From the UHGV virus genome UHGV-0313710: 35,773 nucleotides of DNA, one strand, 5' to 3'. The stretch comes from a virus. The position numbers were made by a program. Position 1 is the stretch's first letter; every line of letters begins with the position of its first letter. Positions 27,001 to 30,000 of this stretch are shown here, one piece after another.

Positions 27001-30000
27001 TAAATCGATTTATCCATTAGATTTTTCATAAAGCTCAGGTTTAAATGGCAACCGTCCGCAAGTTCTATATGCAGCCTCTGCTGCACGTCCTTTTGGAATT
27101 AACTGGCCAGGACGGTTTCGCCACTGATAAACGGCTTCAGTTGTTATGCCGAAAAAAGCAGCAACTTTCTCAATGCTGCCGAAGTAGCTTTCGATATCGT
27201 CAGTCGTCATATGCCCTCCAAACTAAGTTTTATTAGATGTTAATTATCAATCTATCTTAGGTCAATAAAAACTAAGATTACTTAGTAATTAAAGAAATGG
27301 TGCTCCTATGGAAACGGTTGGTCAGCGTATAAAAGCTCTGAGAAGAGTTACCAGAACGTCCCAGAAAGAATTGGGTAAATTTTGTGGAGTAAGTGACGTT
27401 GCTGTGGGGTACTGGGAGAAAGACATCAATGTCCCTGGTGGGGAAGCACTTTCAAAATTAGCGAAGTTCTTCAATACGTCAATAGATTACATTCTTTATG
27501 GTGCGGAGTTTGAAGGCAAACTCGTCACAAACATGCGCAGAGTTCCTGTAATCTCGTGGGTTCAGGCTGGGCAGTTTACTGAGTGCAGGACAGCAGAAGT
27601 GTTTAGTGAAGTAGACAAGTGGGTAGATACATCATTAAAGATTGGTGATAACTCATTTGCATTGGAGGTTAAAGGCGACTCCATGACTAACCCTAACGGC
27701 CTCCCAACAATACCAGAAGGCGCAACAGTGATTGTAGATCCTGATGCAGAACCCCGGCATGGAAAAATAGTCATCGCTAGACTTGATGGAACAAACGAAG
27801 CCACAGTAAAAAAATTAGTTATCGATGGCCCTCAAAAGTTTTTAGTGCCATTAAATCCCCGGTACCCCAACATCCCGATCAATGGTAATTGCCTCATCAT
27901 TGGTGTAGTCAAAGGAGTTCAATACGAACTCTAGCCCCCCTTTTCTCTAACCAAAACACCGAACTAAGAAAAGTTTGGTGTTTTCTCTTGCCATCAAAAC
28001 TAAGTTAAGTTAGATTTTATATCAAAGATAACGAACAGGCAGGACGCCCACGAAGTAGCCGCCGGTGGCATATGAATGACCGGATGATTCGTTAGCAACA
28101 AAAAAAGCGCCATATAGGACGCTTCGCTCTTTAACAATCCTGGTATCCCCGTAACAAAAGAGGGTTCTATGGTCATATTCTGTGCTTACGTTCATCCTAA
28201 TGGATTTTTTATCAGCACCAACCAACAAGACGAATTCTGGATTCTACTTAGTAAGCAGGTCGGATGGGGACGATTCTGTCTAATCCGACCAGAATCAGAA
28301 TTTACAGAGAATGGAGGGCTTTTTGAATTACGTGAAATACGTCCGGCAGATGGTCAAGCCCCTGACCAAGTAATCGAATCGTCAGCTGTTTTATGGCGTC
28401 GGCAGGAAGCGTTCGAAGCTGAGAGAGTAATTTCTTCTTATCTTCAGTCGTGGCAGAAGTAGAACTATTGATGATACGTTCAAGTTCACAGAGAGTCTCA
28501 TCATGCAATCTTATTGTCATAATCCCAAGAATAGCTTTAAGACCTCCATCATCACGAATGAAATCAATTCCATCTTTAGTAATTCTTAATTCAGGAATAT
28601 TTATATTTATGCCATCCAAGTAATAATCAAGAGCATTCTTAATCAAGCCATGTTCTTCGAGATAAATTAAGTTCGAAATTAGGACATTATCATCTCCAAA
28701 TGCGTCACGAACAGACTGCAACGCATCATCAGAAATTTCATAAGGATGAGCATCATACAGTATTTGTAACAACTGCCTTTGTGCACTTCTATCAAATTTG
28801 TCCATCTTAAATAATCACCATGTTATTGGGGGTATCAAGATTAACCGAATCCTTGTTGTTGGGGAATAACCAGGTCCACCTCGCCTGATGTGGCTAAAAG
28901 CAGGCACATAACAGCTAAGTATTTTCAACCAGAGAGAATCCTTAGCGTTGTGGTGAATGCGGCTCAGCGCACGCGGGTTAAGGTTGAGACTGACAGTCGA
29001 CCTTCTGTGGATACCCACCCGCCTGGTGTGCAACCTTCGCCAGGCACCGGGAGGCACCCGGCACCACAACAGCCACTGCTTTGGCGGTACCAGTTTGTAC
29101 ACTTGCTTCCGGCTGGTACCGCTCTTTTTACAAAACAGAGAAGAGCATCACCGGACGACGGGCTCATAACCCAATCCATCCGGGCGGCTGCCACCGCAGG
29201 TGTTCTTCTCTGTTTTGTGGAGAAACCAACCGACCTTGCAGGGTCGATATGATGAGGAGCAGCAAAATGGCTAGCGAACGCAGTACCAACGTGCAGGAAT
29301 TTATCGTAGAACTGGACGGCGGCGTATTTGAAACCAAACTCGGCGCAGTTCTCAGTGAAGTCGCTTCCGGTGCGATGAACACGAAAAACAAAGGTAAGGT
29401 CTCGCTCAACCTGGAAATCGAACCATTTGATGAGAACCGTGTGAAAATCAAACATAAACTCTCATATGTTCGCCCGACTAACCGCGGGAAAATTTCCGAA
29501 GAAGACACCACCGAAACGCTGATGTATGTCAATCGCGGTGGTCGCCTGACTATTCTGCAGGAAGACCAGGGACAATTACTGACTCTTGCCGGTGAACCTG
29601 ACGGAAAACTACGCGCAGCAGGTCATTAATATCGTTCTTAATTAACTGATTATTTATCTCATCACTGAATATCTTTATATAGTGAGGACTTATTATGTCT
29701 CAGAACTTAGACGCAACCGCAATTAATCAAATTCATGCCCTTATTTCTGCTCAGGGTGTTAATGAAATTATCAGTAATATTGGTGCCGATGCTGTGGCAT
29801 TGCCTGAGAATTTCCGCATTCATGATCTGGAAAAATTTAATTTAAATCGCTTCCGTTTCCGTGGCGCGCTTTCCACTGCCAGCATCGATGATTTTACCCG
29901 TTATTCTAAAGATCTTGCAGATGAAGGCACCCGCTGCTTTATCGATGCTGATAATATGCGTGCCGTCAGTGTGCTTAACCTGGGTACTATTGATGAACCA

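What the first reader, a model, noticed from the sequence alone, without database searches (positions are those of the whole stretch)
28860..29260. Highly structured GC-rich leader with a boxA-like motif ahead of the early-left genes
About 400 bp with no convincing ORF contains several strong inverted repeats: a perfect 10-bp stem at 29092..29130 followed by CGCTCTTTTTACA, and a 14-bp-stem hairpin enclosing about 58 nt with further internal stems. I found no N-like gene with an obvious arginine-rich motif. The region could be a nut-like site, an RNA-based (put-like) antitermination element, a terminator cluster or a small RNA.
Basis: partly seen in the sequence, partly recalled or inferred. 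Interest (0 to 1): 0.5.

Follow-up and report, generated by a model that had tools for sequence, protein, structure and literature searches.

The report
Prophage leader RNA of STnc100 family
The structured stretch is a non-coding leader in front of a prophage's early-left genes; it carries an unannotated, divergent copy of a known prophage small-RNA module (STnc100/PasD) followed by a transcription terminator, and it is not a lambda-type nut site or an HK022-type put antiterminator.

Summary
Window 28876-29266 is non-coding and far more structured than shuffled sequence.

Its centre (28948-29070) is a divergent copy of the Rfam family STnc100 (RF02076; PasD and EcOnc27 are relatives). It scores 36 bits, below the curated cut-off of 47, so standard pipelines miss it.

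The core is a closed five-helix domain with a loop-to-strand pseudoknot. Across 93 distinct prophage copies, 94.7% of pair cells are standard pairs and 20 of 29 pairs change on both sides.

The flanking parts are:
- a covarying hairpin (P0) just upstream;
- a 12-nt linker and a strong terminator (29083-29129) downstream;
- a 93-nt hairpin;
- a small hairpin just before the yfdP ribosome-binding site.

The "boxA-like" CGCTCTTTTT is only the terminator's 3' arm plus its U tract, and relatives do not keep it. HK022 and HK639 put RNAs do not match. No N-like gene and no second copy exist.

Best reading (about 50%): an insulating terminator in the early-left leader that also releases an Hfq-type small RNA, as shown experimentally for relatives.

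How these N-less phages read through the terminator, and what the near-invariant core binds, remain open.

Homologous leaders occur in about half of complete E. coli genomes. In K-12 prophage e14 the region is annotated as the protein gene ymfH.

The parts
27988..28020 (+). Context: likely early-left promoter (pL-like), TTGCCA-17-TAGATT, overlapped by an operator copy (AAACTAAGTTAAGTTAGAT)
   Evidence: The promoter scan finds it. The operator repeat matches the two copies between cro and the cI-like gene at 27220-27292 (families D1/D2). The assignment as pL is inferred.
28302..28805 (-). Context: 167-aa gene on the opposite strand in the variable 'moron' slot between pL and the leader (phrog_3983, unknown function)
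   Evidence: It has its own promoter-like site (28838..28811) and minus-strand terminators (28125..28104). SfV, mEp460_4F5, e14 and phiES15 carry different genes in this slot.
28876..28913 (+). Conserved 5' block (CCACCTCGCCTGATGTGGCTAAAAGCAGGCACATAACA) ending in the motif CACA(U/C)AACAG
   Evidence: Similarity to SfV, SfII and mEp460_4F5 starts here, although their upstream genes differ. The block alone recurs in other lambdoid early-left regions. Its function is unknown.
28914..28946 (+). Hairpin P0 (GCTAAG...CTTAGC), immediately 5' of the core
   Evidence: (I5) and the fold. ST64B, phiES15, L034, L090, P1 and lambda have a 10-12-bp stem of different sequence at the same place. The covariation is read directly from those sequences.
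28948..29070 (+). STnc100/PasD-type core. P1: 28948-28955 with 29062-29069. J: AAU. P2: 28959-28974. P2b: 28975-28977 with 29018-29020. P4: 29021-29028 with 29038-29045. P5: 29047-29061 (CCGGG AGGCA CCCGG).
   Evidence: Rfam RF02076 matches full length, 28929-29131, at 36.3 bits against a curated cut-off of 47; E = 4e-6 for a 901-nt search and 1.6e-4 for the whole window. My own model R1 gives 80.7 bits, but this sequence is in its seed.
28980..28986 (+). Pseudoknot 5' strand, AAGGUUG; it pairs with the P4 loop
   Evidence: In phiES15 the pair is AAGGCUG/CAGCCUU, a change on both sides.
29031..29037 (+). Pseudoknot 3' strand, CAACCUU, in the 9-nt loop of P4
   Evidence: Across 63 distinct sequences, each copy's own loop pairs with its own strand for a mean of 7.08 contiguous bp. 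Shuffled partners give 5.57 +/- 0.14, and 0 of 2000 permutations reach the observed value.
29071..29082 (+). Single-stranded linker (AGCCACUGCUUU), a candidate seed region
   Evidence: Unpaired or weakly paired in the fold. Relatives carry a different conserved linker, UUGCUGUGUGUAGUC. The window shares its linker with mEp460.
29083..29129 (+). Intrinsic terminator: 11-13-bp G+C-rich stem, large loop, then UCUUUUU. It contains the 'boxA-like' string.
   Evidence: (-21.2 kcal/mol). The stem covaries: GGCGGUACCAG in the window and SfV, GUCGGCGUC in ST64B, GCCCGC in phiES15. 98 of 110 distinct family copies have a hairpin plus U tract downstream, at a median of 48 nt. The simple terminator scan missed this one because its loop limit is 8 nt.
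29128..29220 (+). Hairpin 2: long (about 22-bp) outer stem with two inner hairpins. Possible double-strand-RNase (RNase III) or stability element of the read-through mRNA.
   Evidence: Two-sided changes against ST64B and e14 appear in the outer stem. The inner hairpin reads GCGG/CCGC, GCUG/CAGC or CUGUGG/CCACAG. It is 98-99% identical in the leaders of mEp460, the Stx2c phages and cdtI. The functional assignment is inferred.
29231..29246 (+). Hairpin 3, 7 nt upstream of the GAGGAG ribosome-binding site (29254-29259) of yfdP (ATG at 29267)
   Evidence: ST64B (GGCGG/CCGCC) and L047 (GCCCC/GGGGC) have a stem of different sequence at the same place.

Best explanation
Window 28876-29266 is the transcribed, non-coding leader of the prophage's early-left operon (yfdP-yfdQ-yfdR and onward). 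It carries a divergent copy of the STnc100/PasD prophage RNA module: hairpin P0, a closed five-helix pseudoknotted core (28948-29070), a short single-stranded linker, and a strong intrinsic terminator (29083-29129).

The most likely working is as follows.
1. Transcripts enter from the repressor-controlled pL-like promoter about 900 nt upstream, or from whatever gene occupies the variable slot just upstream.
2. Most of them stop at this terminator.
3. The stop has two effects. It insulates the downstream early-left genes; in relatives these include kil, gam, xis and int. It also releases a stable structured RNA whose linker and U tail make it an Hfq-type small RNA, as shown for PasD, STnc100 and EcOnc27.
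4. Polymerases that read through transcribe a 93-nt hairpin and a small hairpin next to the ribosome-binding site. These probably set processing, stability and translation of the yfdP message.

Shown here:
- family membership and the covarying structure, including the pseudoknot;
- the terminator and its covariation;
- the absence of any coding signal;
- the recurring position in the early-left leader.

Inferred:
- the promoter that feeds the element;
- termination in vivo;
- Hfq binding and trans-acting function of this particular copy;
- the roles of hairpins 2 and 3.
For: Family membership:
- Rfam STnc100 matches full length, with the model's own terminator aligned to 29084-29131.
- The window's core contains the exact 20-nt string CCGGGAGGCACCCGGCACCA that was used to collect more than 120 viral contigs, and those copies also carry GGUGAAU.

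Structure:
- 94.7% of pair cells are standard pairs, against 80% in shuffles.
- 20 of 29 pairs change on both sides.
- Slid controls give 39-48% paired.
- The pseudoknot passes the permutation test.
- The many G-U pairs fix the strand as +.

Terminator: 89% of distinct copies are followed by a terminator.

Position. The element lies in the same early-left spot, with different genes on either side, in:
- SfV;
- ST64B;
- phiES15, where it lies before kil-gam;
- HannyBb;
- e14, where it lies before xisE-intE.

Experiments on relatives:
- PasD1/2 are Hfq-dependent RNAs on northern blots and have RIL-seq partners (PMC8550237).
- EcOnc27 crosslinks to Hfq (PMC4104026).
- STnc100 is treated as a prophage small RNA related to PasD (bioRxiv 10.64898/2026.05.13.724894).

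Non-coding status.
Against: - No transcript data exist for this copy.
- pL should be repressed in a lysogen, so a small RNA made only after induction is less obviously useful than the late-promoter copies.
- No promoter lies within 110 nt upstream.
- The terminator loop is unusually large.
- These phages lack N, yet must express genes beyond a strong terminator. The model does not explain this.
- A 110-nt pseudoknotted core with about 30 invariant bases is more elaborate than an Hfq small RNA needs.
- About 10% of copies, including the one in phage P1, have no terminator and run straight into a gene.
- The conserved linker of relatives is replaced in this window.
- No target was found within the phage.
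Confidence: 0.5

Rival explanations
1. RNA-based processive antitermination that works like HK022 put, but perhaps needs a host or phage factor. The nascent core would bind the polymerase that made it and carry it through the leader terminator and later ones, replacing the missing N protein.
For: - The element occupies the place of N/nutL: it lies between pL and kil-gam in phiES15 and before xis-int in e14.
- SfII, SfV and SfIV lack N, cII and cIII (PMC3851460).
- A strong terminator directly follows the core.
- In 19 of 105 distinct upstream regions a promoter ends 4 nt before the core, so the core would begin at or near the transcript start, much as putL does.
- The near-invariant bases suggest binding to a conserved host machine.
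Against: - There is no similarity to HK022 or HK639 put.
- Each genome has a single copy and none in the early-right operon.
- Most canonical copies examined lie between a Q antiterminator gene and lysis genes, and about a fifth start at lambda-pR'-like promoters. Autonomous read-through there would be lethal in a lysogen.
- Terminated products of 200-240 nt accumulate in vivo (PMC8550237).
- Tandem arrays of two to five units occur, most units with their own terminator.
- In this window the core lies about 900 nt from pL.
Confidence: 0.12
2. A cis-acting mRNA module at the downstream edge of variable gene slots. The compact core, perhaps after cleavage near CACAACAG/P0, would give the downstream message a protected structured 5' end, or recruit a host RNA-binding factor. 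Any small RNA released would be a by-product.
For: - The core is found without a terminator directly ahead of genes in the P1 ban operon, at the last unit of tandem arrays, and in L067.
- It always points the same way as the downstream genes.
- It sits just downstream of variable gene slots in three different operons (PMC4104026).
- In copies that begin at a promoter, the 5' end is buried in helix P1.
- The conserved single-stranded motif and the covarying P0 lie just upstream.
Against: - No processing data exist.
- 89% of copies are followed by a terminator, which would defeat a pure 5'-UTR role unless antitermination is supplied.
- The relic in lambda has lost most of the core, so the element is dispensable there.
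Confidence: 0.2
3. A small protein gene. The homologous stretch is annotated as ymfH in K-12 e14 and as 'hypothetical protein' in many phages.
For: - ORFs of 100-126 codons cross the region in most homologues.
- PHROG family phrog_33599 matches a 37-residue stretch over hairpin 2.
- RefSeq annotates YmfH.
Against: - The open frame changes between homologues, and 1-, 8- and 10-nt indels occur.
- Substitutions are not enriched at third positions.
- There is no Pfam match.
- phiES15 has no open frame longer than 54 codons.
- The variation preserves RNA pairing instead.
Confidence: 0.03
4. A nut-like site (boxA plus boxB) used by an unrecognised N-like protein.
For: - The literal string CGCTCTTTTTACA resembles boxA.
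- The region lies in the early-left leader.
Against: - The string is the terminator's 3' arm plus its U tract, and it varies in relatives.
- No boxB-type 5-bp hairpin with a GNRA-like pentaloop follows it.
- No N-like protein was found in the proteins tested (PMC3851460).
Confidence: 0.02

Closest known systems
STnc100 (Rfam RF02076), PasD1/PasD2 and EcOnc27: Hfq-associated small RNAs of lambdoid prophages
   Same: - The same closed core: GUGGUG...CACCAC helix, AAU, P2, P4 with loop pairing, and the invariant ACCGGGAGGCACCCGG hairpin.
- A terminator about 15-60 nt downstream.
- A prophage setting next to a variable gene slot.
- The same orientation as the downstream genes.
   Different: - It scores below Rfam's curated cut-off (36 against 47 bits).
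- P2 has a different sequence (GCGGCUCAGCGCACGC, not CCCCCUGUGCGGAGGGG).
- It has an extra covarying hairpin P0 and two further hairpins downstream.
- It lies in the early-left leader of phages without N. Most described copies lie between the Q gene and the lysis genes, or 3' of stx2B.
HK022 putL/putR and HK639 putL: cis-acting antiterminator RNAs
   Same: A structured RNA in the leader of an early operon, in a lambdoid phage that has no N-type antiterminator, upstream of terminators.
   Different: - There is no sequence or covariance-model similarity.
- Put is about 70 nt with two stem-loops and a short triple helix (PMC9378689). This element is about 120 nt with five helices and a pseudoknot.
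- Put occurs once per early operon in HK022; this element occurs once per genome.
- Relatives of this element terminate efficiently in vivo.
Short transcripts from the late promoter pR' to terminator tR': lambda 6S RNA (my own knowledge) and StxS of Stx phages (my own knowledge; no paper was retrieved)
   Same: Some canonical family copies begin about 5 nt after a TTGACN-17/18-TAAATT promoter and end at the first terminator. They would therefore be made constitutively and be overridden by Q.
   Different: The window's copy has no adjacent promoter and lies in the early-left operon. Lambda itself keeps only a degenerate relic, downstream of tR'.
P1/P7 C4 RNA and P4 CI RNA: leader-encoded phage regulatory RNAs processed from the operon they control (my own knowledge)
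   Same: A structured RNA encoded in the leader of the operon it precedes. P1 also carries a copy of the present core, but in its ban operon.
   Different: Rfam reports no C4 match here at E up to 10. No complementary target was found inside the phage. The P1 match lies between upl and tciA in the ban operon, not at c4.

Membership tests
STnc100 / PasD (Rfam RF02076) | Score at or above Rfam's curated gathering cut-off (47 bits) | tested here: not met
   36.3 bits over model positions 1-206, full length. E = 4e-6 for the 901-nt search and 1.6e-4 for the whole window. The gathering-threshold scan found nothing. Canonical copies score 72-90 bits. The miss is one of degree: the match is significant and full length.
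STnc100 / PasD (Rfam RF02076) | Core helices and invariant motifs (GGUGAAU; ACCGGGAGGCACCCGGCACCA; P1 closing the domain) | tested here: met
   The exact 21-nt motif occurs once in the window and zero times in 100 shuffles.
STnc100 / PasD (Rfam RF02076) | Conserved secondary structure supported by covariation | tested here: met
   94.7% paired, 20 of 29 pairs with two-sided changes, slid controls 39-48%. The alignment was fitted to the model. Pseudoknot.
STnc100 / PasD (Rfam RF02076) | Intrinsic terminator at the 3' end | tested here: met
   29083-29129. The same holds in 98 of 110 distinct copies.
STnc100 / PasD (Rfam RF02076) | Expressed as a discrete Hfq-bound RNA | not testable with these tools
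   Shown only for relatives (PMC8550237; PMC4104026).
HK022-type put antiterminator RNA | Sequence and structure homology to putL/putR (two stem-loops, about 70 nt) | tested here: not met
   Neither Rfam STnc100 nor model R1 matches HK022 or HK639 put regions. The sequences were read directly.
HK022-type put antiterminator RNA | One element in each early operon, close to its promoter | tested here: not met
   The window, SfV, ST64B and phiES15 each have a single copy. In the window it lies about 900 nt from the pL-like promoter.
HK022-type put antiterminator RNA | Factor-independent read-through of downstream terminators | not testable with these tools
   Indirect evidence argues against it: relatives accumulate as terminated RNAs (PMC8550237), and many lie upstream of lysis genes.
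Lambda-type nut site with N protein | Conserved boxA, a boxB hairpin, and an N protein with an arginine-rich motif | tested here: not met
   The boxA-like string is not conserved. No N-like family was found among the proteins tested. SfII, SfV and SfIV are reported to lack N (PMC3851460).
Protein-coding gene (YmfH-like) | Conserved reading frame with an excess of third-position substitutions | tested here: not met

The most novel reading that the evidence does not exclude
The near-invariant pseudoknotted core may be more than a small-RNA scaffold. It may bind a conserved host machine (RNA polymerase, the ribosome, or an RNase or tRNA-processing enzyme) and act in cis at the downstream edge of variable gene slots in phage operons. 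One version is a factor-dependent antitermination, anti-Rho or anti-decay device that stands in for N in SfV/e14-type phages. A side possibility: the RNA, not a YmfH protein, is what triggers the retron-Sen2 toxin when 'ymfH' is overexpressed (bioRxiv 10.1101/2020.06.22.160242).
Probability: 0.15. Interest if true: 0.75.

Novelty: new member of a known kind. Interest (0 to 1): 0.42.

Why it matters
- This subfamily of a known prophage RNA family falls below Rfam's cut-off, so it goes unannotated or is called a protein. Examples are ymfH in E. coli K-12 e14 and 'hypothetical protein' in many phages.
- Part or all of the leader occurs in 2781 of 5426 complete E. coli genomes.
- The element can now be placed in three kinds of phage operon: the early-left leader, the late leader, and the P1 ban operon. 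In each it sits just downstream of a variable gene slot.
- The covarying pseudoknotted core suggests the family has a structural or cis-acting role beyond base-pairing regulation.
- This gives a concrete handle on an open question: how SfV/e14-type phages, which lack N, get from pL to their excision and recombination genes.

Tried and rejected
- **Put homology.** I fetched HK022 and HK639, read putL and putR, and scanned them with Rfam and with my own model. There was no match.
- **Second copy in the early-right or late operon.** None was found in the window, SfV, ST64B or phiES15.
- **tRNA or tmRNA.** ARAGORN finds none in the window.
- **Lambda 6S or late leader as a homologue.** Only a degenerate relic remains downstream of tR' (9 bits, E = 0.5).
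- **A target inside the phage for the linker, as in P4 or P1 immunity.** Only the trivial antisense self-match appeared.
- **Protein coding.** Rejected.
- **boxA/nut.** Rejected.
- **A local sigma-70 promoter just upstream of the core.** None reaches 9 of 12 matches within 110 nt. By eye, TATTTT at 28920-28925 has no -35 partner.
- **Riboswitch-like competition between the core and the terminator.** The similarity of the P2 hairpin to the common GCCCCUCUCCGGAGGGGC terminator disappears in copies with other terminators. This was checked by eye only.
- **King et al. 2011 on new put RNAs.** The paper could not be retrieved.
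Full report
**Setting**

The window is a lambdoid prophage of the SfV/SfIV/mEp460 type.
- A cro-like gene lies at 27010-27210 (-) and a cI-like LexA-family repressor gene at 27308-27934 (+).
- Two operator copies of the ACTAAG-N4/5-CTTAG type lie between them.
- A third operator copy overlaps a promoter-like TTGCCA-17-TAGATT at 27988-28016 (+), just after the repressor gene's terminator hairpin. I take this to be the early-left promoter (pL). That is an inference.
- Next comes a 167-aa gene on the opposite strand (28302-28805; phrog_3983, function unknown). 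It has its own promoter-like site and its own minus-strand terminators.
- The 460-nt non-coding stretch follows, then yfdP (ATG at 29267), yfdQ and yfdR.
- The same prophage, 100% identical over the 392-nt query (window 28876-29267), sits in E. coli MS6198. RefSeq annotates nothing between the 167-aa gene and yfdP there.

Yes.
- Terminator hairpin: a perfect 10-bp stem at 29084-29093/29113-29122, extended to 13 bp in the fold, then UCUUUUU.
- Long hairpin: arms 29130-29154/29194-29218, with the outer 15 bp perfect and 59 nt enclosed.
- Third hairpin: 29231-29246.
- Folding z-scores against dinucleotide shuffles are -4.2 for 28905-29135 and -5.4 for 29128-29275. None of 200 shuffles folds as well in either case.

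Mechanical ORFs do cross the region, but they do not look coding.
- The open frame is different in the window, SfV, e14, ST64B and L034, and phiES15 has no long frame at all.
- Indels of 1, 8 and 10 nt occur.
- Substitutions are spread 8/13/9 (against ST64B) and 5/8/6 (against e14) over the three codon positions of the longest frame.
- A PHROG family (phrog_33599) matches 37 residues over hairpin 2. It reflects repeated ORF calls on near-identical DNA, not selection on a protein.

**What it is**

A permissive Rfam scan gave one clear match: STnc100 (RF02076), positions 1-206 of 206, at 28929-29131 on the + strand. The score is 36.3 bits against a curated cut-off of 47. E is 4e-6 for the 901-nt search and 1.6e-4 for the whole window. 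The model's 3' terminator aligns with the 29084-29122 hairpin.

The 20-nt string CCGGGAGGCACCCGGCACCA from the match occurs in more than 120 viral contigs. The 21-nt form of it occurs once in the window and never in 100 shuffles.

From 34 diverse copies I built a covariance model (R1). It found 134 copies in 100 loci.

On the resulting alignment of 93 distinct sequences:
- 94.7% of pair cells are standard pairs, against 80.0 +/- 0.5% after shuffling.
- 20 of 29 pairs show changes on both sides.
- Sliding the partners by 1-3 columns drops pairing to 39-48%.
- Caveat: the alignment was fitted to the model, and the window's sequence is in the seed.

The deduced core has five helices:
- P1: GUGGUG/CACCAC, 8 bp, closing the domain.
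- An AAU junction.
- P2: a hairpin with an NNGC loop.
- P2b: a short helix that closes a variable insert.
- P4: 8-9 bp.
- P5: the invariant hairpin CCGGG-AGGCA-CCCGG, which abuts the 3' strand of P1.

Rfam's model does not include one feature: the 6-10-nt loop of P4 pairs with the strand just after P2b. At least a dozen different sequence pairs keep this complementarity, for example CCAGUC/GACUGG, CUGGUG/CACCGG, AUCAGC/GCUGGU, CUAGGC/GUCUAG and AGACUGACAAA/UUUGUCAGUCU. In the window the pair is AAGGUUG (28980-28986) with CAACCUU (29031-29037). In phiES15 it is AAGGCUG with CAGCCUU.

Own-partner pairing averages 7.08 contiguous bp. Permuted partners give 5.57 +/- 0.14, and 0 of 2000 permutations reach the observed value. 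The frequent G-U pairs fix the functional strand as +.

**The early-left subfamily**

The window's copy belongs to a subgroup with these features:
- a different P2 sequence;
- an extra hairpin P0 directly 5' of P1, with a stem of 6-12 bp whose sequence differs in the window, ST64B, phiES15, L034, L090, P1 and lambda;
- a conserved single-stranded CACA(U/C)AACAG before P0.

Members lie between the repressor/pL region and the first early-left gene. Different genes sit on either side in each phage:

| Phage | Upstream | Downstream |
|---|---|---|
| SfV | orf33 | yfdP-like gene |
| ST64B | nothing | sb37 |
| phiES15 | gp10 | kil-gam...xis-int |
| HannyBb | two hypothetical genes | small ORFs, then an exonuclease gene |
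| K-12 e14 | ymfJ and antisense ymfI | xisE-intE |

Further points on this subgroup:
- Each phage searched in full has exactly one copy, and none lies in the early-right or late operon.
- In all of them except P1 a terminator follows 15-60 nt downstream, and its stem covaries.
- mEp460, the Stx2c phages and cdtI share only 29054-29266 with the window, at 98-99% identity.
- mEp460 carries a more divergent core upstream of that join. Its P5 reads CCGG-AGAUCAGCA-CCGG, and it scores 26.5 bits with R1.
- The window is therefore a recombinant: an SfV-type core joined to an mEp460-type linker, terminator and hairpins.

**The wider family**

- Most canonical copies examined lie downstream of Q antiterminator genes of several types and upstream of holin-lysozyme-Rz genes or a sialate esterase gene.
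- One copy lies 75 nt after stx2B (PMC12370729).
- In 19 of 105 distinct upstream regions, a lambda-pR'-like TTGACN-17/18-TAAATT promoter ends 4 nt before the model's first position. Such a transcript would start inside P1.
- 98 of 110 distinct copies are followed by a hairpin plus U tract, at a median distance of 48 nt. About 10% run straight into a gene.
- Tandem arrays of two to five units occur. In L021 each of the three units is preceded by a promoter-like sequence resembling lambda pR'.
- Phage P1 has an unannotated copy in its ban operon, between upl and tciA, with no terminator.
- Lambda keeps a degenerate relic just after tR'.
- A species-level scan finds the motif mostly in Enterobacterales.

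**What the literature shows**

- STnc100, PasD1/PasD2 and EcOnc27 are treated as prophage small RNAs. Hfq association has been shown for PasD (northern blots) and EcOnc27 (UV crosslinking).
- PasD is Hfq-dependent on northern blots and has RIL-seq partners (PMC8550237).
- EcOnc27 lies at the downstream edge of the gene-insertion slot after pR' (PMC4104026).
- The 2026 preprint by Zhu, Shabalina and Storz links PasD and STnc100 by structure.
- In the papers I could search I found no mention of an early-left-leader subfamily, the pseudoknot, the P1 copy or the overlap with ymfH. That is not proof that these are unpublished.

**Mechanism**

The most economical reading is that the module does here what its relatives do. 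Transcription ends at the terminator and releases a stable structured RNA with a single-stranded linker and a U tail. At the same time, the downstream genes are shielded from transcription that comes from pL or from the neighbouring variable gene. I put this at about 0.5.

The put-like idea is attractive because SfII, SfV and SfIV lack N (PMC3851460) and the element sits where N and nutL would be. Four things count against it:
- There is no homology to put.
- There is a single copy per genome.
- The family accumulates as terminated RNA.
- Most canonical copies sit upstream of lysis genes, some directly after pR'-like promoters. An autonomous antiterminator there would kill the lysogen.

I give it 0.12, mostly for a version that depends on some factor.

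A cis-acting role as a protective or processing module earns 0.2, for three reasons:
- Some copies have no terminator.
- The core is too elaborate for a simple Hfq small RNA.
- It sits at the edge of variable gene slots in three unrelated operons.

Coding (0.03) and nut (0.02) are essentially excluded.

**Open questions**

- How is the leader terminator read through during lytic growth?
- What does the core bind? P5 never varies in the 92 copies scored at those columns, but those copies were collected using the exact P5 sequence as the search string, so this invariance is partly circular; mEp460 shows that P5 can differ.
- What are hairpins 2 and 3 for? Both covary. Hairpin 2 is long enough to be a substrate for RNase III, the double-strand-specific RNase, as in the leader of lambda N. 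That comparison is from my own knowledge and was not tested.

**Verdict**

The finding is real and is now largely explained. It is an unannotated, divergent member of a known prophage RNA family plus its terminator, in an unusual operon position. It is neither a nut site nor a put element. Interest is moderate: the element is very common and often annotated as a protein, and the family's core function is still unknown.

Noticed in passing
L134 3001-3388 (E. coli K-12-type e14 prophage); corresponds to window 28876-29266: The K-12 'gene' ymfH (103 aa) lies entirely on the homologous RNA leader, just upstream of xisE-intE. The core is at L134 3074-3195 and scores 64 bits with R1. No coding signal was found. 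A retron study lists ymfH overexpression as a trigger of the retron-Sen2 toxin RcaT, which may be an effect of the RNA rather than a protein.
   Followed up: partly
L125 2503-2625 (phage P1, AF234173 69760-69882): Phage P1 has an unannotated copy of the core (R1 71 bits, a seed member; Rfam 33 bits) in the ban operon between upl and tciA. P0 lies upstream of it and no terminator follows.
   Followed up: partly
L133 11790-11942 (phage lambda 44789-44941): Just after tR', lambda keeps CACAACAG, a P0 hairpin (GUAAGAGCA.../...UGCUCUU) and a P1 helix (UUGUGCUG/CAGCACAA). The interior is degenerate (R1 9 bits, E = 0.5). It looks like a relic of the same module in the late leader.
   Followed up: partly
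L021 373-989; also L029, L066, L012, L083: Tandem arrays of two to five core units occur at a period of about 250-260 nt (484 nt in another set). In L021 each of the three units is preceded by a lambda-pR'-like promoter with a TGAATAAA element resembling a Q-binding site. Most units have their own terminator, but the last unit of the L029 and L066 arrays runs into a gene without one.
   Followed up: partly
window 29054-29062: There is a mosaic joint inside the invariant P5/P1 sequence. mEp460, the Stx2c phages and cdtI share only the downstream part (98-99% identical). mEp460 carries a divergent core variant upstream of the joint (L256 2384-2517; R1 26.5 bits).
   Followed up: yes
window 28876-28913: A 38-nt block (CCACCTCGCCTGATGTGGCTAAAAGCAGGCACATAACA) recurs at 90-97% identity in other lambdoid early-left regions. 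In Hafnia phage Pocitis76 it lies next to sieB with no core in the 5-kb stretch searched; in HannyBb a core lies about 270 nt downstream. Its function is unknown.
   Followed up: partly
window 29071-29082, compared with SfV, e14, ST64B and phiES15: Relatives share a single-stranded linker, UUGCUGUGUGUAGUC, between the core and the terminator. It is a plausible seed region. The window and mEp460 have AGCCACUGCUUU instead.
   Followed up: partly
window 27953-28020: A terminator-like hairpin follows the cI-like gene (27953-27984). Directly after it lie a third operator copy and a promoter-like site, the probable pL/OL.
   Followed up: partly
window 28302-28805 (-): A 167-aa gene of unknown function (phrog_3983) lies antisense to the pL transcript, in a slot that holds different genes in SfV, mEp460_4F5, e14 and phiES15.
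   Followed up: partly
E. coli genome search: Part or all of the leader occurs in 2781 of 5426 complete E. coli genomes, with up to 5 places per genome. 1823 genomes have at least 80% coverage. The features annotated under the listed matches are protein genes (hypothetical protein, yfdP, ymfH) or nothing, never an RNA.
   Followed up: yes
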